A DNA stretch of 64,000 nt. Source: Minisyncoccia bacterium (GTDB lineage Bacteria > Patescibacteriota > Minisyncoccia > Phycocordibacterales > UBA9973). This document shows, piece after piece, positions 1 to 56,608 of this stretch. The notes beneath the pieces were generated by a model. It ran no database searches. It was not told where the DNA came from and saw nothing but the letters and a program-made list of their open reading frames with translations. The stretch is from NCBI GenBank assembly GCA_049287305.1, contig JBAQFO010000009.1, positions 108,558 to 172,557 on the forward strand, given 5' to 3'. The position numbers and the translations under genes are program-made. The first letter of the stretch is position 1. Each line of letters opens with the position of its first letter.

Positions 1-592
1 AGTATCCGAAAACATCATGCACTAGCGCGAAAAGAACATTACCGTCTTTAATGCTATATACCAGCGCTCCGCCTTTTTTGTCTATCGGAAGTTTGGAAAT
101 ATCCACGGGTTCGTTTGCCTTTTTCTTTTTGCTTTCCTGTTCTTTGCCGGGTTCGCCTATTTCTTTGTATACGGCACCAAGGACGCCGTTGACGAATTTG
201 CCGGAGTTTTCTCCGCCGAAAGTTTTCGCAAGTTCAATAGCTTCGTTGATGGCAACCTTTGGAGGAACTTCTTTGCGGTCGCCGAACAAAAGCTCGGTAA
301 GGCCGATTCTGAGTATATTTCTGTCCACTACCGATATTTTATCTATCGGCCAGTCGGGAGCCGCCTTTTCTATAATTTCATCAATAACCCCGCGTTTTTT
401 TAGAACTTGGTCAATCAAAGAAAATACAAAAATGTCATCCTCAAAACCGGGGGCGAATTCGTTTAAATTTCTTTTCAGAACTTCCTTTATTTCTTCCGGC
501 GTAGGATTGGCGTTCTTTTTTTCATCTCCGGAGAAATCCCACTCAAAAAGCGTCTGCAGAACTATTGATCTAGAAAGGTGCCTATTTGCCAT
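1..592 (-). CDS. nusB: Transcription antitermination factor NusB, 5'-complete, C-terminally extended and running off the window start
   Basis: Manual translation of the reverse strand from ATG at 592-590 gives [20 protein letters not shown]...[31 protein letters not shown], the NusB signature. It is followed by a K-rich linker and a new domain start ([20 protein letters not shown]) with no stop before position 1. Confidence 0.8.
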
Positions 593-2460: not shown

Positions 2461-4545
<2,085 letters not shown>

Positions 4546-33294: not shown

Positions 33295-33384
<90 letters not shown>

Positions 33385-33454: not shown

Positions 33455-33545
33455 GGAGCCGTGTCAGAGTGGTCTAACGTACCTCTTTGCTAAAGAGGCA
33501 GGGGCTTTATACCCCCTCGCGAGTTCGAATCTCGCCGGCTCCGCA
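33455..33545 (+). tRNA. tRNA-Ser (anticodon GCU), type II
   Basis: Acceptor GGAGCCG/CGGCTCC, anticodon stem CCTCT/AGAGG with loop TTGCTAA, long variable arm, T-arm GCGAG-TTCGAAT-CTCGC, discriminator G. Confidence 0.85.
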
Positions 33546-44220: not shown

Positions 44221-44411
44221 GGGTTTATAATCATATCAGAAACGGAATGTTCCGCAACCGTTCAGTCATTATACACGACCCTTCCTTTGGAAAGTAAGTG
44301 GATAACCCGTATTTTTTGCCAAATTTCGCAAAAGAAAACACCGAAAAACAGAAGACAAGAGGTGATTTTTCTGAGCCAGTATTTATAAGCTCCTTATGAG
44401 ACAAAAAAGTG

Positions 44412-44485
44412 TCCGTCCTCTTGGATTCGAACCAAGGACCCCAGAGGTATAAGCTCTGTGCTCTAACCAACTGAGCTAAGGACGG
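44412..44485 (-). tRNA. tRNA-Ile (anticodon UAU)
   Basis: Hand-folded 74-nt cloverleaf: acceptor CCGTCCT/AGGACGG, D-arm GCTC-AGTTGGTTA-GAGC, anticodon stem CAGAG/CTCTG with loop CTTATAC (UAU), V-loop GGGTC, T-arm CTTGG-TTCGAAT-CCAAG, discriminator A. Resembles Ile2-type tRNAs. Confidence 0.8.
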
Positions 44486-44542: not shown

Positions 44543-46468
44543 TTACTTGACTCCTTGCGGTGGCGCCACTAAATCTTTCTTCTTTAGAAGTATTCCGTGA
44601 GCAACCAGTATTTTTTCGTATTCGTCTTGCTCTATGGTTTCCACTTCTATTAGTTTATGGGCTATGGCAGTAAAGGCTTTTTTGTGTTCATTCAGAACTT
44701 TTTCCGCGGACTTAAGTCCGTCATTGATAATTCGCGAAACTTCTCCGTCTACCTTGGTTGCCAAGTTTTCAGAAAGTTCTTTTTCCGGAATATCGCCGTA
44801 TTGAGCCCGTCCAGGAGAATCTGCCAGCGCAATCGGGCCAATAAGATCGGACATTCCCCATCTTGTCACCATCGCCCGGGCTAGGTTGGTCGCAACTTGC
44901 AAATCGCTTGATGGTCCCGTTGTTATGTCTCCGAAAATCATCTGCTCCGCAACATATCCACCAAGCGACATCGCGATGTCATCTATAAATTCTTTTTTGG
45001 ATTGCAATCTTTTTTCTTCAAGCGGAAGTTTGAGTGTGTATCCGCCGGCGTTGCCTCGAGAAATAATTGAAACTTTGTGAACTGGGTCGGCGTAAGGAAG
45101 GACAGACGCTACGATGGCGTGTCCGGCTTCGTGATAAGCGGTAATTTCTTTTTCTTTCTTTGAAAGCAGGTGGCTCTTTCTCTCGGGTCCAAGCATAACT
45201 TTTTCTATCGCCCGGATAAGGTCAAACTGAAAAACTTTTTTCCTGTTCTCTCGTGCCGCAAGTATCGCACCTTCATTCATAAGAGAATATAAATCCGCGC
45301 CGGAGAATCCCGGAGTTCTCTCGGCGATTAATTTCAAATTAATATCTTCGGCGAGCGGTTTTTTGAGCGCGTGAATATTCAATATCGCTTCACGGTCGGA
45401 ACGGTCCGGTAAATCAAGAATCACTTTTCTGTCAAAGCGACCCGGACGCACAAGCGCGGGGTCTAGAACATCGGGCCTGTTGGTCGCCGCCATAACTATA
45501 ACTTTATCGTTCGGTTCAAAGCCGTCCATCTCCACCAATATTTGGTTTAATGTTTGTTCCCGCTCATCGTTCCCTCCGCCGAATCCTCCCCCGCGAGTGC
45601 GTCCTATGGCGTCTATTTCATCCACGAATATGATTGCGGGTGCCGCTCTTTTGGCCATTTTGAAAAGATCTCGCACCCTGGATGCTCCTACTCCCACAAA
45701 CATTTCCACAAATTCGCTTCCAGATAAGTGGAAAAATGGCACAGAGGCTTCTCCTGCTACCGCCCGGGCAAGCAAAGTCTTCCCCGTTCCCGGCGCGCCG
45801 GTAAGCATTACTCCTTTTGGAATTCTGGCTCCAATATCTAAAAATTTCTTGGGACTCTTCAGAAAATCCACAATTTCTTTTAGTTCTTCCTTCGCCTCCT
45901 TGCATCCGGCAACATCTTTGAAAGTTACCTTGTTGTTCTTGTCGTTGGGGTCAGTGATGCGCGCTTTGGACTGGCCGAAGGTGAACGCCTGCATCCCTGC
46001 TCCTTTGACCTGTCGGGACAAATACCAGAAAAATAAAAGTATGAAGACTATGGGCAGAAGAAACGGCAAGATATTCACCAACCAGAAAGTAAAGCCGCTT
46101 TCGTTTTTTATTTGTATCTCGGTTTCTGCAAGAGCTTCCGGCTTCACACCGTAGTTAAAGAGCGTTTGAGACAATGCGGAGTTAACTTCTTTTTTGGTTG
46201 TTTTTATTTCTTCATTTTTATAAGTTACCGTGAGCTTGTCTCCTTCCACTAAAATGCTTTTAACTTCCCCCGCTGAAACATTCTGGGCAAGTTCGGAAAT
46301 GGCGATTTCGGGAATTTCTTTCTTGTCTCCGGATATCATCAAATAAAATGCCGTAATGAGCATGAAGAAAACCACAGCCCCTAAAATGTTGTTGCTGAAC
46401 TTTGTCTGCTTCGGAAGCTTTTTCCCCTTTCTTTCGGGCTCTTTTTGATTAAGAAAATTTAAATCCAT
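44543..46468 (-). CDS. ftsH: ATP-dependent zinc metalloprotease FtsH
   Basis: Two N-terminal TMs, AAA module ([25 protein letters not shown], second region of homology), and protease HEAGHAIV. Confidence 0.9.
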
Positions 46469-46666
46469 AGGGGCAATAATAGCACAAAAAACACCAAATG
46501 TGAAATTGGTTTTTATTCTTTCTATTTAAATAATCTACAAACCTATAAAAATAAGATTTTGGAAAAATGACGGCAACGGAACCATTCCAAAATAACCAGC
46601 AACAAGGTAAACGATTACCAAAACTATAATAATTAATAAATATTTCATATCAAATATTATACTACT

Positions 46667-46683
46667 TTTGTGGAGATGGGGGA
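46667..46683. repeat. 17-nt direct repeat ttgtggagatgggggaa. The second copy (46822-46838) is the 3' terminus of the tmRNA gene
   Basis: Exact 17/17 identity at 46667-46683 and 46822-46838, spacing 155 bp. The intervening segment holds the ssrA terminator hairpin. Confidence 0.7.
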
Positions 46684-46785
46684 ACGAGCTACAAATATTT
46701 TTCTGCTGAAAAATTTCGCAGCCCCACCTCAGTCGCCTTCGCTCCCTCCGGCTATTCGATTTCCCTCTTATTTCTACCGGCAACG

Positions 46786-46820
46786 CAAAATAAAACTGCC
46801 ATTTAGGCAGTTTTATTTTG
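46786..46820 (-). terminator. Rho-independent terminator immediately 3' of the tmRNA gene
   Basis: aaaactgcc-attta-ggcagtttt hairpin with flanking A/T runs. Confidence 0.6.
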
Positions 46821-46824
46821 ATTG

Positions 46825-47223
46825 TGGAGATGGGGGAAATCGAATCCCCGTGCAGAAGGTTTTTGTAAGGACGTCTACATGTTTAGCGCGCTTTTTGTTT
46901 TAAATTAAAAAATTATGAAACGCGCCAAATATTTTTTAATCGATTCTCTTTGTTTCGGAAGAAAGCCGAGACATTCTTTTTCCTATCCCGATTATGTTAT
47001 GCCCGCTCTTGTATATCGGAAGTCCACAAGAGAGACACGAGCTTACGCTAAAGCGGAAACTCGAGCAAAAGCGAAATCATTCATACCGAAGTATGGAGAG
47101 ACTGCGACTCTTACCTTGGAAGCTAATTTTGCAATTAAGCTATTGAACGACTTTTTACGAGATTACGTTCATGCTCGACATGCACCGATGACAAAAGGCC
47201 AACTGTCTATGCCTTGCATCCCC
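46825..47223 (-). ncRNA. ssrA: tmRNA (ssrA), about 399 nt, directly downstream of smpB
   Basis: Reverse strand starts GGGGAUGCAAGG... and ends ...GGGGAUUCGAUUUCCCCCAUCUCCA: a tRNA-like acceptor (GGGGAUG pairs with CAUCUCC, with G3-U as in E. coli), T-arm GGGGA-UUCGAUU-UCCCC and discriminator A. It has an internal GGUGCAUG and an exact CUCGUAAAAAG block as in E. coli tmRNA, and a tag-like reading frame ending ...AFARVSALA-UAA (stop at 47045-47043). Confidence 0.8.
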
Positions 47224-47245
47224 ATATTTTTTTCTCAATGTTCGT

Positions 47246-47692
47246 TTATCTCTCTTTGTATTCCCTTCGGAGTTCTCTGTCCGTTTCACGTTTTTTTATC
47301 GTGTCCCGTTTATCAAATTTTTTCTTGCCTTTGACTAAAGCAATTTCCACTTTTATCTTTCTGCCTTTATTATACACTGAAATTGGCACTATTGTCAAAC
47401 TCTTGTTTTTTTCACTCCCCGTAAGCTCGTTTATTTCTTTCTTGGTCAAGAGCAACTTCCGGTTGCGAAGCGGGTCATAGTCGCTCGGAGCATTTTTGGC
47501 CTGATATGGCGGAATATTTGCGTTAATTATATACGCTTCTCCCCCGCGAATAATGACAAAAGCCCCCTCAAGAGATACCTGCCCGCCCCGAACGGATTTC
47601 ACCTCCGTGCCCAAAAGCTCAATACCTGTTTCGTATTTTTCCAAGATTTCATAGTTAAATCGCGCCTTCCTGTTTTCAGCGTAAATCGCCAT
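47246..47692 (-). CDS. smpB: SsrA-binding protein SmpB
   Basis: MAIYAENRKARFNYEILEKYETGIELLGTEVKSVRGG... is a near-canonical SmpB. Confidence 0.9.
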   Translation of the reverse strand: MAIYAENRKARFNYEILEKYETGIELLGTEVKSVRGGQVSLEGAFVIIRGGEAYIINANIPPYQAKNAPSDYDPLRNRKLLLTKKEINELTGSEKNKSLTIVPISVYNKGRKIKVEIALVKGKKKFDKRDTIKKRETDRELRREYKER

Positions 47693-47765: not shown

Positions 47766-48287
47766 TTGCCTTACTTATATCAATTGCGCGAAAGAATAAA
47801 CAACCAAATACGGGCTAAGGAACTTCGGGTCCTGGACAGCGAAAACAAAAATCTAGGTGTTTTAAGTATCAGAGATGCTCTGGAAATGGCACAGAGTAAG
47901 GGTTTGGACTTAATTGAAATATCCCCGAACGGCAACCCCCCTATAGCCAAGTTGATGGATTTCGGCAAGTATCAGTATGAGGCCAATAAAAAATTAAAGA
48001 AGGCAAAAGCGGGCGCAAACAAGACAGAGACCAAGTCAATCCAGATAAAGATAGGCACCGGAGACCATGACCTGGAATTAAAGGCAAAAACGGCATCCAA
48101 GTGGATAAAGGAAGGCCACAGGATAAAAGTAGAACTCTTTCTTGCCGGACGAGCCAAATACATGGATGAGAAATTTTTAAGGGAGCGATTGGACAGAGTG
48201 CTTCATTTGATTACCGAAGATTATAAGGTTTCAGATAATTATAAAAAGGGTCCGAAAGGTTTGACTATAACAATAGAAAAAAAATAA
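47766..48287 (+). CDS. infC: Translation initiation factor IF-3 (start codon uncertain, non-ATG)
   Basis: INNQIRAKELRVLDSENKNLGVLSIRDALEMAQSKGLDLIEISPNGNPPIAKLMDFGKYQYE is the IF3 N- and C-domains. The frame opens with TTG; infC commonly uses atypical starts. Confidence 0.85.
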   Translation: MPYLYQLRERINNQIRAKELRVLDSENKNLGVLSIRDALEMAQSKGLDLIEISPNGNPPIAKLMDFGKYQYEANKKLKKAKAGANKTETKSIQIKIGTGDHDLELKAKTASKWIKEGHRIKVELFLAGRAKYMDEKFLRERLDRVLHLITEDYKVSDNYKKGPKGLTITIEKK

Positions 48288-53845: not shown

Positions 53846-56608
53846 TTATTCCATTGAGGTGTATCGCGCCATGATTTCCGCCTCTACTTCTTCTCGGTCT
53901 CGGCCGAATTTTACGTAGGAAAGTTCTTTGAGACTGTCTACGATATCCATGTTCCCCTTCTCGGCATCCAAAGTTCTTAAATTAAAGGGCTTTGTAGGTT
54001 GGCCGTTAACCAACATGCTCATGTAAGCTTCGCGGTTATTGAGTTTGGTAATATCGTGCGCAGAAAACTGCGGTTTGAACTTTGGTTCTAAGAACGTAGC
54101 GTCTTCTGTTCCCACTCGGAACACTGCCATAGACCCAACGTTACCGAAAACTGCGTTTTTGATATTCTCTTCAAGTTGAGTTATATATTGGTGCGCAATG
54201 TTAAGAGACAGTCTGTATTTTCTCGCTTCAGACAAAATAGAAGCGATGGAGTCGGTAGTAACGTTTTGGAATTCGTCAATGTATAAGTAGAAATCATTCA
54301 TTGGCTTGCCGAACATGTCTACTCTGGACAAAGCCGCCATTTGGATTTTACCTACCAGCACAAGACCGATTAAATTAGCGTTTATATCACCAAGTCTCCC
54401 TTTTGAAAGATTAACAAGCAATATTTTTTTCTCGTCCATAATCTTTCGGAAATTGAAAACCGAATTTTGCTGAAGCACTACCGGCCGCATGATGTCGTTG
54501 GAAATAAAGTTATCAAATTTGGATGAGATATAAGGCACGAAGTTCGCAAGCGACTGGTCCCCTGTCGTCTGCTCGGCAGAAATCCAAAATTGCTTAATAA
54601 TGGGATTCTTGCATTTTGCTAATTTCATATCCCGAAATTCTTTATCGCCAAGGACACGAGTAATTTCAAGCAAAGTAGAACCGGATTCTGGGTCTTCCAT
54701 CACCAAGAAGGCGCTGTTTCGGAAATATTGTTCAAACATGGCGCCTCCTCCAACCTTCATGTCAAAAAGCTTGTTGAAAATTCCCATCATTTCGTTAACT
54801 ACGAAAGTTTTCTGCTCCGGATATTTCGGGTCGTATTCAAGCATGTTTAGCCCCATTGGACGCGCCGTGTAAGCAGGGTCAAAATATATGACATCATCAA
54901 TTCGTTCTTTGGGAATACGGGAAAGTATTGTCTGAATATCGGTGCCGTGCGGGTCAATGTAGCAGCATCCATCGCCGTTTTTTATATCCTGGGTAATCAT
55001 GTTGAGCATAATGTTGGTCTTACCGGTTCCGGTCTGACCTATCACATACATATGTCGCATTCTGTCTTCGCGAGCCAGATGTATCTCGGTATCCCGCCCA
55101 CGGTAACTGTTTATTCCCAAAACTATACCTTCCTGCCCCATTTCAATAGGGGCCGGAGCAATCCCCGCCTTGGCTTCTTTAAGCTGAGGCTGGCTGCCAA
55201 TTCCAATCGGGAAATGAAACACCGAGGCCAGTTCCTTTAAATTCATCGGTAAGGCTTTATCGGAAGCGAATGTTCGGAAAGAGAAGTCGTGAAAAAGTTT
55301 CTTCAAACCACTTCCATTTACCTGTTCAAAAATCAAGGAATTGCTGGCTGCTTCGGAGAATTGATTAAAGGACGACTCTATCTCCTTTAAAATTCCTTCC
55401 GCGCGTTCCTTGGTTTCTCCGGAGGCAATTACCCGGATGTTGGCTTTCATTATTGTGCTTTTTATTTTATTGCCAATTTTCTCCACTGCCCCTTCATCCA
55501 CCGCGCGTCGTCCCTTCATGTTTTTATCTGTTTTTTCAACTTCCGGTTTTCCTCCGAAAATCAAATCCTTACTTACCTTGGTGAGGGCTCTGTGAAATTT
55601 GTAGAAGTTATCCGCGGCATGTTTTACGGCCATACCGTCCTTAACATCATCCAAAATGATGTGAAACTCATTTATAAATTTATCTCCTGCGGGAGCGATA
55701 ACGAACTGGATGGCTGCGCCTTCCCCTGTCTTTTGGAGCTTGGAAAACACGTTCAAAATCACATTCATCGGGTCGTGTTCTATATTGTCGTATGTTTTGA
55801 GCGGCATCACGGCTCTTTCGGTAAATGAAGCGTATGCTCCCACCGAACCGCCATTTTCATTAAAAATATTATAGTCATCGGTAGCTTCGCGAATTTTCGC
55901 ATTATGATAGAAGGCGGAAATTTGTTTTTCAAAAAGAGATGTGTATTTATTGGGAATAGCCGCGTATATCACCACTTCGTCGTTTTGGTTTCCCAAAGCC
56001 ACCTCAAGAGTGAAGTAATTTTCTTCTTTATTCGCTTTTCCTTCCGAGATAGACTGCATCCCGGCGTAAAACTGCTCCATGGCGCCGATGAATTCTTTAA
56101 AGTTTTTTGATTTGTCAGCTTCATCTTCCGGCGGAGGGAGAGTTATTTCAAAAAGAGTCATATTTAAAGCTTTATAAACAGGATTGCCTTCTTTAAAATC
56201 TGATATGACCTGCCCCGTTTTCAAATATTGAACTAGAAGCCGATGGAAGTCATCGTCTATGTGCGCGCTATTCATTGCCTCTACCACGGAAAGAGCGTTG
56301 CGAATTCCCTTGGTTATAACTATGCCCAAAAGTTCTTCCATTACACTATCGTGGGGCTCTGGTTTAAGAGCCAATACTATGTTTTCCGTATCGTTTGCAC
56401 TCAAAACATTGTCTGTGTGAAGAACTTGCTCCGTTGGAATATTCTTATATTCCCCGATAACCTCCTCTGCCGCTTTTTCGGTGGCGTGTTCTACATGCCC
56501 GATTTTTATGAGTTCTTCTTCCTTTGATTTAACATGCGCGCGTAAATAATCCAACTCCTCTTCAGGAGTCTTAAATCTCGGCATTTCTTTAAAGAATGAC
56601 GGTTCCAT
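53846..56608 (-). CDS. HerA/DUF87 (FtsK-HerA superfamily, VirB4/TraD-related) P-loop ATPase with a ~500-aa unrecognised N-terminal domain
   Basis: Walker A VIGQTGTGKTN followed by the HerA-type IDPHG motif, Walker B LYIDEFQN, a C-terminal region like T4SS/HerA DNA-translocase C-domains, and no TM segments. The N-terminal 1-500 has no recognisable motif. Confidence 0.6.
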   Translation of the reverse strand: MEPSFFKEMPRFKTPEEELDYLRAHVKSKEEELIKIGHVEHATEKAAEEVIGEYKNIPTEQVLHTDNVLSANDTENIVLALKPEPHDSVMEELLGIVITKGIRNALSVVEAMNSAHIDDDFHRLLVQYLKTGQVISDFKEGNPVYKALNMTLFEITLPPPEDEADKSKNFKEFIGAMEQFYAGMQSISEGKANKEENYFTLEVALGNQNDEVVIYAAIPNKYTSLFEKQISAFYHNAKIREATDDYNIFNENGGSVGAYASFTERAVMPLKTYDNIEHDPMNVILNVFSKLQKTGEGAAIQFVIAPAGDKFINEFHIILDDVKDGMAVKHAADNFYKFHRALTKVSKDLIFGGKPEVEKTDKNMKGRRAVDEGAVEKIGNKIKSTIMKANIRVIASGETKERAEGILKEIESSFNQFSEAASNSLIFEQVNGSGLKKLFHDFSFRTFASDKALPMNLKELASVFHFPIGIGSQPQLKEAKAGIAPAPIEMGQEGIVLGINSYRGRDTEIHLAREDRMRHMYVIGQTGTGKTNIMLNMITQDIKNGDGCCYIDPHGTDIQTILSRIPKERIDDVIYFDPAYTARPMGLNMLEYDPKYPEQKTFVVNEMMGIFNKLFDMKVGGGAMFEQYFRNSAFLVMEDPESGSTLLEITRVLGDKEFRDMKLAKCKNPIIKQFWISAEQTTGDQSLANFVPYISSKFDNFISNDIMRPVVLQQNSVFNFRKIMDEKKILLVNLSKGRLGDINANLIGLVLVGKIQMAALSRVDMFGKPMNDFYLYIDEFQNVTTDSIASILSEARKYRLSLNIAHQYITQLEENIKNAVFGNVGSMAVFRVGTEDATFLEPKFKPQFSAHDITKLNNREAYMSMLVNGQPTKPFNLRTLDAEKGNMDIVDSLKELSYVKFGRDREEVEAEIMARYTSME

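What the first reader, a model, noticed from the sequence alone, without database searches (positions are those of the whole stretch)
46825..47334. tmRNA (ssrA) downstream of smpB, masked by a spurious 139-aa plus-strand ORF
The minus strand between 47223 and 46825 has all tmRNA hallmarks. It has a 5' GGGGAUG that pairs with 3' CAUCUCC-A (with the G3-U wobble of E. coli tmRNA), a T-arm GGGGA-UUCGAUU-UCCCC, an internal GGUGCAUG, an exact CUCGUAAAAAG block, and a tag-like frame ending …FAFARVSALA-UAA. A hairpin terminator follows immediately. The +139-aa ORF at 46915-47334 and the +88-aa ORF at 47214-47480 are antisense artefacts. The proteolysis tag appears unusually long or ambiguous (the resume codon was not pinned down), which is worth resolving for this lineage.
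Basis: seen in the sequence. Interest (0 to 1): 0.55.

Follow-up and report, generated by a model that had tools for sequence, protein, structure and literature searches.

The report
Standard tmRNA gene, 29-residue tag
This is a genuine, conventionally built tmRNA (ssrA) gene just downstream of smpB in a Nomurabacteria (candidate phyla radiation) genome. Its ribosome-rescue tag is 29 residues long, and the only unusual features lie around it: a promoter buried in smpB and a small insertion scar at its 3' end.

Summary
Rfam's tmRNA model matches window 47223->46822 (minus strand) end to end (110.8 bits, E 1.9e-42). smpB lies 22 nt upstream. The two plus-strand ORFs have no Pfam match, and the antisense ORF is not conserved.

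Seventy-one related Nomurabacteria/Paceibacterota loci carry a homologous ~400-nt tmRNA. On a 70-sequence alignment the full fold is 91% paired, against 37-51% in slid controls. That fold comprises the acceptor stem with invariant G3-U, the T arm, H2, PK1-PK4 and H5. Compensatory changes occur at 76 of 96 pairs.

The resume codon is GCA at 47132-47130 and the tag is AKLASKVRVAVSPYFGMNDFAFARVSALA, with UAA at 47045-47043. Relatives have tags of 21-29 aa in the same frame, and every indel in the reading frame is a multiple of 3.

So this is an ordinary one-piece tmRNA with a long, Mycoplasma-like tag. Three extras were found:
- a UUCG hairpin inside the tag reading frame;
- a perfect TTGACA-18-TATAAT promoter inside smpB whose synonymous sites are frozen across relatives;
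- a 154-bp insertion at the exact 3' end (46668-46821) that supplies the terminator and duplicates the last 17 nt. It belongs to a repeat family found 3' of tmRNA and tRNA-Ile genes. Longer elements at the same tmRNA position in relatives encode a GIY-YIG nuclease.

The parts
46822..47223 (-). tmRNA (ssrA) gene. The mature RNA is probably positions 1-399 (47223-46825) with CCA added afterwards, because the gene encodes A-CAA rather than A-CCA.
   Evidence: Rfam RF00023 110.8 bits, E 1.9e-42, model 1-374. Homologous tmRNAs in 71 relatives. CCA is encoded in only 14 of 70.
47217..47223 (-). Acceptor stem 5' strand GGGGAUG. It pairs with 46826-46832 (CAUCUCC). G3-U is invariant, and the discriminator A lies at 46825.
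   Evidence: helix 1: 98.8% paired; G-U in 69 of 70; pairs 4 and 5 switch GC/AU to AU/CG in 15 sequences. A399 is invariant.
46833..46849 (-). T arm GGGGA-UUCGAUU-UCCCC.
   Evidence: helix 16: 100% paired; all 5 pairs show compensatory changes.
47144..47177 (-). Pseudoknot PK1 (stems 47-50/63-66 and 53-58/75-80 in tmRNA numbering).
   Evidence: helices 4 and 5: 97.1% and 94.7% paired.
47046..47132 (-). Tag reading frame. The resume codon is GCA at 47132-47130. The encoded tag is AKLASKVRVAVSPYFGMNDFAFARVSALA (29 aa). The stop UAA lies at 47045-47043.
   Evidence: ARAGORN -ps gives the same tag at positions 92..181. The Rfam alignment puts GCA at the consensus resume position. UAAUUGCA occurs in 66 of 70 sequences, and all 40 gap runs are multiples of 3. 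Third-codon-position diversity is 0.37 against 0.19 and 0.23. Relatives have tags of 21-29 aa.
47082..47095 (-). Hairpin inside the tag reading frame, CAUAC-UUCG-GUAUG, encoding PYFGM.
   Evidence: Fold -4.5 kcal/mol, z = -3.9. 92.8% paired, with 3 of 5 pairs compensatory (helix 6). Loop types among 70 sequences: UUCG 46, UUCA 5, UUUA 4, GCAA 2.
47038..47063 (-). Helix 5, which carries the stop codon in its 3' strand.
   Evidence: Fold -11.6 kcal/mol. helix 7: 7 of 7 pairs with compensatory changes.
46885..47032 (-). Pseudoknots PK2 (47032-46986), PK3 (46983-46945) and PK4 (46940-46885).
   Evidence: helices 9-15. PK2 83.6% and 99.4% paired. PK3 stem 2 92.5% paired. PK4 98.4% and 82.8% paired. 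One PK3 sub-helix is weak at 56%.
47246..47692 (-). smpB (148 aa), the protein partner of tmRNA.
   Evidence: Pfam PF01668, E 3.4e-53, covering profile positions 2-142 of 143.
47369..47398 (-). Consensus sigma-70 promoter TTGACA-18-TATAAT inside smpB (codons 99-100 and 107-108). It is the likely ssrA promoter and would give a leader of about 139 nt.
   Evidence: 12 of 12 match. 12/12 in 50 and 11/12 in 8 of 59 relatives. Synonymous codon diversity is 0.00-0.08 at the four hexamer codons, against a gene median of 0.51 (24 sequences).
46787..46819 (-). Bidirectional intrinsic-terminator-like hairpin directly after the tmRNA. It is part of the inserted segment.
   Evidence: -22.6 kcal/mol, z = -7.7. 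It is absent from the empty-site relatives L081 and L082.
46668..46821 (-). 154-bp insertion at the exact 3' end of the gene. It consists of the terminator, an inverted copy of the T loop and T stem (46754-46765), two hairpins (46727-46749 and 46689-46721), and a 17-nt direct repeat of the tmRNA 3' end (46668-46684).
   Evidence: The 17-mer occurs exactly twice. An empty site exists in metagenome contigs. A profile of the module finds copies 3' of tmRNA and of tRNA-Ile genes. The hairpin shows covariation.
46915..47334 (+). Spurious 139-aa ORF antisense to the tmRNA gene and to the smpB 3' end. The 88-aa ORF at 47214-47480 is the same kind of artefact.
   Evidence: No Pfam match for either ORF. 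The longest ORF antisense to the tmRNA gene is not conserved in 71 relatives.

Best explanation
Window 47223-46822 (minus strand) encodes a functional one-piece tmRNA. It works with the SmpB protein encoded 22 nt upstream.

Shown here:
- A tRNA-Ala-like domain: a 7-bp acceptor stem with G3-U, discriminator A and a T arm.
- The long H2 helix.
- PK1 followed by the conserved UAAUU|GCA resume context.
- A 29-codon reading frame whose stop lies in helix 5.
- PK2, PK3 and PK4.

Inferred from established trans-translation biology:
- The RNA is trimmed and CCA is added, because CCA is not encoded.
- It is charged with alanine and enters stalled ribosomes with SmpB.
- The ribosome resumes on GCA and appends (A)AKLASKVRVAVSPYFGMNDFAFARVSALA. 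It then terminates at UAA, releasing a protein marked for proteolysis.
- The long tag with an internal FAFA and a final A-x-A resembles the long Mycoplasma tags read by Lon. The responsible protease here is unknown. ftsH lies next downstream.

Transcription most likely starts at the conserved TTGACA-18-TATAAT promoter inside smpB. The 5' end would then be made by RNase P.

The present 3' terminus and terminator come from a 154-bp insertion that displaced the original 3' end to 46668-46684.
For: - Covariance model: 110.8 bits, E 1.9e-42, full length.
- smpB: Pfam E 3.4e-53.
- Relatives: 80 related loci, all CPR. A homologous tmRNA follows smpB in 71 of them.
- Consensus fold: 48 of 63 pairs are compensatory.
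- Named structure with four pseudoknots: 91.0% of cells paired against 36.9-50.9% when slid; 76 of 96 pairs have double changes; 0 of 500 shuffles reach the observed values.
- Tag: ARAGORN -ps and 27 default calls on the 72 extracted tmRNA sequences, nearly all using the same resume codon. Tags of 21-29 aa in 72 sequences, with 69 TAA and 3 TAG stops.
- Coding signal: third-position diversity excess, all 40 ORF indels multiples of 3, and UAAUUGCA in 66 of 70.
- Promoter.
- Insertion.
- Long Mycoplasma tag degraded by Lon: PMC8403727.
Against: - ARAGORN at default thresholds misses the gene, and with -ps it labels it 'tmRNAp'.
- The Rfam alignment has several non-canonical positions in H2. Its mean posterior is 0.73.
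- One PK3 sub-helix is only 56% paired across relatives.
- There are no expression, aminoacylation or tagging data.
- A later in-frame Ala codon (GCU, tmRNA positions 101-103) cannot be excluded as the resume codon by frame analysis alone.
- The promoter hexamers lie in conserved codons, so part of their conservation is protein-driven.
- The protease that reads the tag is not identified.
Confidence: 0.95

Rival explanations
1. The locus is protein-coding. The 139-aa plus-strand ORF (46915-47334) is a real gene and the tmRNA-like features are coincidental.
For: The ORF is open for 139 codons with an ATG start.
Against: The ORF has no Pfam match. The tmRNA model E-value is 1.9e-42 on the other strand. 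In 71 relatives the longest antisense ORF is 34-132 aa, median 90, and only 2 reach 130 aa. Substitutions follow RNA pairing on the minus strand.
Confidence: 0.01
2. The gene is a decaying tmRNA pseudogene. The ARAGORN 'tmRNAp' flag and the rearranged 3' end would be signs of that decay.
For: ARAGORN calls it only below its default threshold. The 3' end has been rebuilt by an insertion.
Against: All helices and the reading frame are intact. They match relatives position by position. The inserted copy restores a perfect T arm and acceptor stem. smpB is intact. ARAGORN also misses 45 of the 72 extracted tmRNA sequences, although their structures covary, so the miss reflects the tool.
Confidence: 0.03
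3. The tag starts at a different codon. One option is the in-frame GCU at tmRNA positions 101-103, giving a 26-aa tag ASKVRVAV... Another option is a different frame.
For: ARAGORN chose a later in-frame start in L054 and an unrelated frame in L013. Frame statistics cannot separate in-frame alternatives.
Against: UAAUU|GCA|AAA is the most conserved stretch of the region, with 66 of 70 identical. It aligns with the Rfam consensus resume position. It keeps U(-5)A(-4), which I recall as important in E. coli; that is recalled, not tested here. The GCU/ACU codon 4 varies between Ala and Thr among relatives. Other frames lack the third-position signal.
Confidence: 0.1
4. For the 154-bp segment at 46668-46821: it is the att scar of a tyrosine-integrase genomic island or prophage that integrated into the tmRNA T loop and was later deleted.
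For: The direct repeat starts in the T loop and runs to the gene end. That is the classic arrangement for islands in tmRNA genes. Gene fragments of this origin are described in PMC4131195. An empty site exists.
Against: ORF lists for the 2.5 kb downstream of the tmRNA in L015 and L001 show no integrase-sized candidate; those ORFs were not scanned against Pfam. Two scans of viral contigs found nothing. Related short copies sit 3' of tRNA-Ile genes. The only protein gene found inside the longer elements 3' of tmRNA encodes a GIY-YIG nuclease of 79-97 aa.
Confidence: 0.2
5. For the same segment: it is a functional 3'-trailer RNA element, not a mobile relic. Its target-complementary stretch would pair alternately with the tmRNA 3' end or with the downstream mimic, controlling 3' maturation or termination.
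For: The inverted copy matches each locus's own T-arm or acceptor variant. Hairpin 46689-46721 has compensatory changes and two invariant G-U pairs on the tmRNA strand. The whole segment folds with z = -6.7.
Against: The distribution is patchy: the module is absent from the closest tmRNA relative L031 and from most loci. Empty sites exist. A strong terminator lies between the tmRNA and the element. Nuclease-coding versions exist.
Confidence: 0.15

Closest known systems
Escherichia coli SsrA/tmRNA (Rfam RF00023, one-piece tmRNA)
   Same: The architecture is the same. It has an acceptor stem with G3-U and discriminator A, a T arm, H2, and PK1 before a GCA resume codon. The stop codon lies in helix 5, followed by PK2-PK4. 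smpB is the adjacent partner.
   Different: The tag is 29 aa and ends in ALA; from my own knowledge the E. coli tag is 10 aa (ANDENYALAA). There is an extra UUCG hairpin inside the reading frame. CCA is not encoded. The likely promoter lies inside smpB.
Mycoplasma tmRNAs with long tags read by Lon
   Same: Both come from genome-reduced bacteria with unusually long tags and an ...FAFA/A-x-A hydrophobic end. PMC8403727 calls the M. pneumoniae tag 'unusual long' and shows Lon-dependent degradation.
   Different: The lineage is unrelated (CPR). The tag sequences are not homologous. The protease here is untested, and only ftsH is seen nearby.
tmRNA gene fragments left by genomic-island integration into ssrA (Williams laboratory; PMC4131195)
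   Same: A second copy of the tmRNA 3' end lies downstream of the intact gene. The identity block begins in the T loop.
   Different: The copies are only 154 bp apart. No integrase was found. Longer elements at the same tmRNA position in relatives carry a GIY-YIG nuclease gene instead.
Group I introns in the tmRNA T loop and in tRNA genes of Patescibacteria (PMC13011429)
   Same: The insertion point is the T loop. The host phylum is rich in such elements. A homing-type nuclease occurs in longer relatives. The segment formally starts after a U and ends in G.
   Different: The tmRNA is already complete upstream of the segment, so no splicing is needed. At 154 nt the segment is, from my own knowledge, too short for a group I ribozyme. 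There was no Intron_gpI match at E <= 1 or <= 0.1. A terminator lies inside the segment.

Membership tests
tmRNA (RF00023) | Covariance-model score above the curated gathering threshold over the whole model | tested here: met
   110.8 bits against 47; model positions 1-374 of 374; E 1.9e-42.
tmRNA (RF00023) | tRNA-Ala-like domain: 7-bp acceptor stem with a G3-U pair, discriminator A, and a T arm with a 7-nt UUCRAUU-type loop | tested here: met
   The sequence shows it directly. G-U in 69 of 70 sequences. T arm 100% paired, with 5 of 5 compensatory pairs. A399 is invariant.
tmRNA (RF00023) | Pseudoknot PK1 immediately upstream of the resume codon | tested here: met
   Stems 47-50/63-66 and 53-58/75-80 are 97.1% and 94.7% paired across 70 sequences.
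tmRNA (RF00023) | Short reading frame without a start codon. It begins at a conserved resume codon (usually GCA), ends in a hydrophobic Ala-rich C terminus, and has its stop in or near helix 5. | tested here: met
   GCA in 69 of 70 aligned sequences. Tags of 21-29 aa, all but one ending in Ala, in 72 sequences. Coding-type substitution and indel pattern. Stop in the H5 3' strand.
tmRNA (RF00023) | Downstream pseudoknots PK2-PK4, closed by the long H2 helix | tested here: met
   Helices 2, 3 and 9-15 are mostly 78-99% paired with compensatory changes. One PK3 sub-helix is weak at 56%.
tmRNA (RF00023) | Presence of the partner gene smpB | tested here: met
   Pfam SmpB E 3.4e-53, 22 nt upstream.
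tmRNA (RF00023) | Alanylation by AlaRS and trans-translation activity | not testable with these tools
   Requires biochemistry or proteomics.
Integrase-mediated island at ssrA (attL/attR) | Direct repeat of the tmRNA 3' end flanking the inserted DNA | tested here: met
   The 17-nt exact repeat lies at 46822-46838 and 46668-46684. An empty site occurs in L081/L082.
Integrase-mediated island at ssrA (attL/attR) | Tyrosine or serine integrase gene within the element | tested here: inconclusive
   The 154-bp insert has no room for one. ORF lists downstream of the module in L015 and L001 show no integrase-sized candidate, but those ORFs were not scanned against Pfam. The longer elements 3' of tmRNA contain only a GIY-YIG ORF.
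Group I intron in the tmRNA T loop | Ribozyme core detectable, and an exon interrupted so that splicing is needed | tested here: not met
   No Intron_gpI match in six element-bearing loci at E <= 0.1, nor in three others at E <= 1. The tmRNA is complete before the insert. The cited paper notes that divergent Patescibacteria introns escape RF00028, so the first half of the test is weak.
Homing-endonuclease cassette (GIY-YIG) | GIY-YIG nuclease ORF inside the element | tested here: not met
   Not met for the window copy: there is no GIY-YIG match in the 64-kb window. Met in relatives, with ORFs of 79-97 aa lying 138-309 nt after the tmRNA in about 10 loci, Pfam E 1e-16 to 1e-17.

The most novel reading that the evidence does not exclude
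The present 3' end and terminator of this tmRNA were installed by a miniature, ORF-less member of an undescribed family of small mobile elements in Nomurabacteria.

These elements insert into the T loop of tmRNA and at the 3' end of tRNA-Ile(UAU). Each carries:
- a replacement copy of the gene's 3' end;
- a stretch complementary to the target that tracks each genome's own sequence;
- two conserved hairpins;
- in full-length copies at the tmRNA site, a 79-97-aa GIY-YIG nuclease that would drive homing without any intron or integrase.
Probability: 0.4. Interest if true: 0.55.

Novelty: new member of a known kind. Interest (0 to 1): 0.25.

Why it matters
For annotation. ARAGORN at default settings misses this gene and 45 of the 72 extracted tmRNA sequences. 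It also mis-assigns the tag in at least two relatives. Pipelines that rely on it will therefore leave ssrA unannotated in Nomurabacteria and may call a spurious antisense ORF instead.

For biology. The lineage-wide tag family AKL..SPYFGM..FAFA..A-x-A (21-29 aa) adds a second genome-reduced group, after Mycoplasma, with long tags. This makes the question of which protease reads the tag in CPR bacteria concrete.

The smpB-embedded promoter is a clean example of a regulatory signal constraining synonymous sites.

If the nuclease-associated element at t(m)RNA 3' ends proves mobile, it would be a compact new way of colonising essential RNA genes without disrupting them.

Tried and rejected
- ARAGORN default on the window gave no tmRNA. 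Relaxed thresholds recover it, so this reflects tool sensitivity, not absence of the gene.
- An exact look-up of the SmpB protein in the assembly collection found nothing on record.
- The terminator scan did not list the post-gene hairpin. Direct folding shows it.
- Two scans of viral contigs found no matches. One used the T-loop-to-3'-end 21-mer and the other a 37-nt core of the insert, so there is no support for a phage attP.
- A search for integrases next to the module in L015 and L001 found no candidate in the ORF lists; the ORFs were not scanned against Pfam.
- Group I intron reading: no Rfam Intron_gpI match, and the gene is complete upstream, so I rejected it for the window copy.
- I considered an invertible segment giving an alternative tmRNA 3' end. 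The inverted form could not pair with the acceptor 5' strand, so I rejected it by inspection.
- Direct blastn between the window insert and the nuclease-bearing elements gave only 10-nt matches. The link rests on the profile hits to their right ends (E 1e-4 to 6e-2) and on shared architecture, so it is suggestive only.
- Pfam on ten large window ORFs found housekeeping genes and no Lon or Clp protease. This is uninformative for the whole genome.
Full report
**1. Checking the observation**

- GGGGAUG at 47223-47217 and CAUCUCC at 46832-46826, followed by A at 46825.
- T arm GGGGA-UUCGAUU-UCCCC at 46849-46833.
- GGUGCAUG at 47186-47179 and CUCGUAAAAAG at 47161-47151.
- A frame ending ...FAFARVSALA with UAA at 47045-47043.
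- A hairpin directly after the gene.

Rfam's tmRNA model (RF00023) matches 47223-46822 over its full length. The score is 110.8 bits against a gathering score of 47, with E = 1.9e-42. The match was reproduced on the sub-region.

ARAGORN at default thresholds reports four tRNAs in the window but no tmRNA. Run locally with lowered thresholds, it reports 'tmRNAp' [1,400] with the tag at positions 92-181.

The post-gene hairpin at 46819-46787 folds at -22.6 kcal/mol, z = -7.7. The simple terminator scan did not list it. I infer this is because the scan extends the stem through the U tract.

**2. Context**

- The ORF at 47246-47692 (minus strand) is SmpB (Pfam E 3.4e-53). It ends 22 nt before the tmRNA 5' end.
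- FtsH (44543-46468, minus strand) follows downstream.
- A gene encoding IF3 starts at 47766 on the plus strand. I read the two short ORFs after it as rpmI and rplT from their translations; they were not scanned.
- The plus-strand ORFs of 139 and 88 aa have no Pfam match.
- In 71 relatives the longest ORF antisense to the tmRNA gene ranges from 34 to 132 aa, median 90. These are chance frames on the antisense strand of a conserved RNA gene.
- Ten large ORFs elsewhere in the window are housekeeping genes, including gyrB, pheT, ligA, recG and secY.

**3. Relatives**

A scan of one-genome-per-species contigs with SmpB returned 80 loci. The records are labelled Candidatus Nomurabacteria, Paceibacterota, Patescibacteria or similar uncultured-bacterium names, and SmpB identity is 70-92%.

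nhmmer with the window tmRNA finds a full-length ~400-nt homologue just after smpB in 71 of them.

I aligned 70 sequences (A1). RNAalifold predicts 63 pairs, and 48 of them show compensatory changes.

I then wrote out the complete structure from the window sequence: acceptor stem, H2, PK1, a hairpin inside the reading frame, H5, PK2, PK3, PK4 and the T arm. Counted on A1, the results were as follows.
- 91.0% of cells are standard pairs, against 36.9-50.9% when partners are slid by 1-3 columns.
- 76 of 96 pairs have double changes.
- No shuffle out of 500 reaches the observed values.
- The G3-U pair is present in 69 of 70 sequences. The one exception, L006, has a misplaced 5' end.
- Acceptor pairs 4 and 5 switch together (GC/AU to AU/CG) in 15 sequences.
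- The T arm is 100% paired, with all five pairs covarying.
- The weakest part is one PK3 sub-helix, at 56% paired.

**4. The tag**

The Rfam alignment places GCA (tmRNA positions 92-94, window 47132-47130) at the consensus resume position. ARAGORN -ps gives the same start.

Translation gives AKLASKVRVAVSPYFGMNDFAFARVSALA followed by UAA.

In all 72 sequences the same frame is open for 21-29 codons, starting with AK or AN (one VK). It has a core SPYFGM and usually FAFA. All but one end in Ala, most often as A-x-A. The stop is TAA in 69 and TAG in 3.

Three observations show that the frame is read.
- Diversity at codon position 3 is 0.37, against 0.19 at position 1 and 0.23 at position 2.
- All 40 gap runs in the reading-frame columns are 3, 6, 9 or 12 nt.
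- UAAUU|GCA is identical in 66 of 70 sequences. This keeps the U(-5)A(-4) context that I recall as important in E. coli, which I did not test here.

An in-frame later Ala codon cannot be formally excluded. It is variable (Ala or Thr) among relatives, so I put about 0.85 on GCA-92.

CCA is encoded in only 14 of 70 genes, and the window has CAA. CCA must therefore be added after transcription.

The tag is long but not ambiguous. The closest precedent is the long tag of Mycoplasma, which is degraded mainly by Lon (PMC8403727). Which protease acts here is untested.

**5. A hairpin inside the reading frame**

Codons PYFGM are encoded by CAUAC-UUCG-GUAUG at 47095-47082 (-4.5 kcal/mol, z = -3.9).

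Loop types across the 70 sequences are UUCG 46, UUCA 5, UUUA 4, UUCC 1 and GCAA 2.

Several variants keep the stem while changing the peptide.
- CAUUC...GAAUG changes Y to F, paired with a synonymous Gly change.
- CCUUAC...GUAAGG changes M to K.
- Two sequences swap the loop to GCAA.

Helix 6 is 92.8% paired, and 3 of 5 pairs show double changes. The RNA structure therefore appears to be selected in addition to the peptide. The counts are small. I do not know of a described equivalent, which is recollection rather than a test.

**6. Promoter**

The only room for a promoter is inside smpB. TTGACA-18-TATAAT at 47398-47369 is a 12/12 match.

The same hexamers are 12/12 in 50 and 11/12 in 8 of the 59 relatives where I could locate the region. 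The 18-nt spacer varies at synonymous sites.

In a 24-sequence codon alignment the four hexamer codons (Leu99 TTG, Thr100 ACA, Tyr107 TAT, Asn108 AAT) have synonymous diversity of 0.00-0.08. The median over 108 conserved degenerate codons is 0.51.

I infer an ssrA promoter giving a leader of about 139 nt that RNase P removes. This is inference, because no transcript ends were mapped.

**7. The 3' end is rebuilt**

The last 17 nt of the gene (TTCCCCCATCTCCACAA) recur exactly at 46668-46684, 154 nt downstream.

Between the two copies lie:
- the terminator;
- an inverted copy of the T loop and T stem (GGGAAATCGAAT, 46754-46765);
- two hairpins (46727-46749 and 46689-46721).

A pattern written to match only an empty site is the T loop through ACAA joined directly to the distal flank AAGTA. 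It hits two metagenome contigs (L081 and L082). In both, the tmRNA end abuts the homologue of the window's distal flank and its small membrane ORF. The 154 bp is therefore an insertion at the exact gene end. The functional 3' terminus and the terminator are insert-derived.

**8. What the insert is**

- Pieces of the insert recur just after the tmRNA in L015, L022 and L052.
- The same three-part layout occurs in L072, and similar layouts in L069, L076 and L001. The layout is the target end, then an inverted copy, then a direct partial copy.
- The inverted copy always matches that locus's own T-arm or acceptor variant.
- A profile built from five copies hits further copies in other loci. The eight strongest of these lie immediately 3' of, and co-oriented with, tRNA-Ile(UAU) genes. 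They are flanked by short repeats of the tRNA end.
- The main hairpin shows compensatory changes and two invariant G-U pairs on the strand of the upstream RNA gene.
- In about ten loci the segment after the tmRNA is roughly 450 nt and contains a 79-97-aa ORF with a GIY-YIG nuclease domain (Pfam E 1e-16 to 1e-17).
- In L008 a decayed copy of the tmRNA 3' end lies on the far side of the nuclease-bearing element.
- The right ends of the nuclease-bearing elements are hit by the profile at E 1e-4 to 6e-2. Direct similarity to the window copy is not significant.
- No integrase-sized candidate appeared in the ORF lists of two flanks, which were not scanned against Pfam. There was also no viral match and no group I intron match.
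- The window has no GIY-YIG gene.

My best reading is that the window copy is an ORF-less relic of a small mobile element that targets t(m)RNA 3' ends and brings its own replacement end (about 0.4-0.5). The rivals are an integrase att scar and a functional trailer RNA.

**9. Comparison and verdict**

Every defining feature of the tmRNA family that can be tested in silico is met. The gene is a new member of a known kind, with a lineage-specific long tag.

Interest in the finding itself is low. The surrounding observations are modestly interesting leads: the reading-frame hairpin, the promoter inside smpB and the nuclease-associated insertion family. They are only partly followed up here.

Noticed in passing
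window 46668-46821 (minus strand): A 154-bp insertion sits at the exact 3' end of the tmRNA. It holds a terminator, an inverted T-loop copy (46754-46765), two hairpins, and a 17-nt direct repeat of the gene end (46668-46684). An empty site exists in metagenome contigs L081 and L082.
   Followed up: partly
L065 399-518, L076 673-806, L017 834-879, L082 1217-1262, L054 803-848, L023 5973-6034, L048 6015-6073, L038 6011-6061: Copies of the same two-hairpin module lie immediately 3' of, and co-oriented with, tRNA-Ile(UAU) genes. Each is preceded by a stretch complementary to the tRNA 3' end plus trailer. Each is followed by a 4-8-nt repeat of that end.
   Followed up: partly
L045 2193-2477, L021 4020-4304, L013 4074-4358, L055 4096-4389, L070 4066-4305, L019 3995-4267; also L035, L080, L008, L025: Small GIY-YIG nuclease ORFs (79-97 aa) sit 138-309 nt after the tmRNA inside ~450-nt versions of the 3' element. 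L011 has a GIY-YIG match between smpB and the tmRNA. None is present in the window.
   Followed up: partly
window 47369-47398 (minus strand, inside smpB): A perfect TTGACA-18-TATAAT promoter lies in smpB codons 99-100 and 107-108. It is 12/12 in 50 of 59 relatives, and the synonymous sites of the hexamer codons are frozen. It is the likely ssrA promoter.
   Followed up: yes
window 47082-47095 (minus strand): A UUCG-tetraloop hairpin lies inside the tag reading frame. It is conserved in relatives, with compensatory changes and two swaps to a GCAA loop.
   Followed up: yes
window 33295-33384 (minus strand), next to 33455-33544 (plus strand): A type II tRNA with a long variable arm and discriminator G is called tRNA-Ser with anticodon ACU by ARAGORN. 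It is divergently paired with a tRNA-Ser(GCU). A34 is unusual outside tRNA-Arg in bacteria (my own knowledge).
   Followed up: no
window 44411-44485 (minus strand): A tRNA-Ile with anticodon UAU (an AUA reader) lies just after ftsH. The same gene lies within about 3 kb of smpB in many relatives. In the window it has no copy of the 3' module.
   Followed up: partly
L013 3530-3930; L054 3460-3854; 45 of the 72 extracted tmRNA sequences: ARAGORN at default settings misses most Nomurabacteria tmRNAs. It gives a wrong tag in L013 (ARSNIFRKLRTRLKNIWPA, from the pseudoknot region) and a truncated one in L054.
   Followed up: yes
L011 3856-4306; L069 3467-3893; L025 2789-3012 plus 3068-3249: Some relatives have enlarged tmRNA genes (451 and 427 nt). 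One has its nhmmer match split by an insert of roughly 50-60 nt near position 223. The inserts were not examined.
   Followed up: no
window 44543-47692 (minus strand): The gene order is smpB, ssrA, a small membrane ORF (46535-46648), ftsH, tRNA-Ile. A protease known to degrade ssrA-tagged proteins in E. coli is thus the next large gene after ssrA. Whether this order is conserved was not counted.
   Followed up: no
window 53846-56608 (minus strand): A 920-aa ORF has no Pfam match at E <= 1e-5.
   Followed up: no
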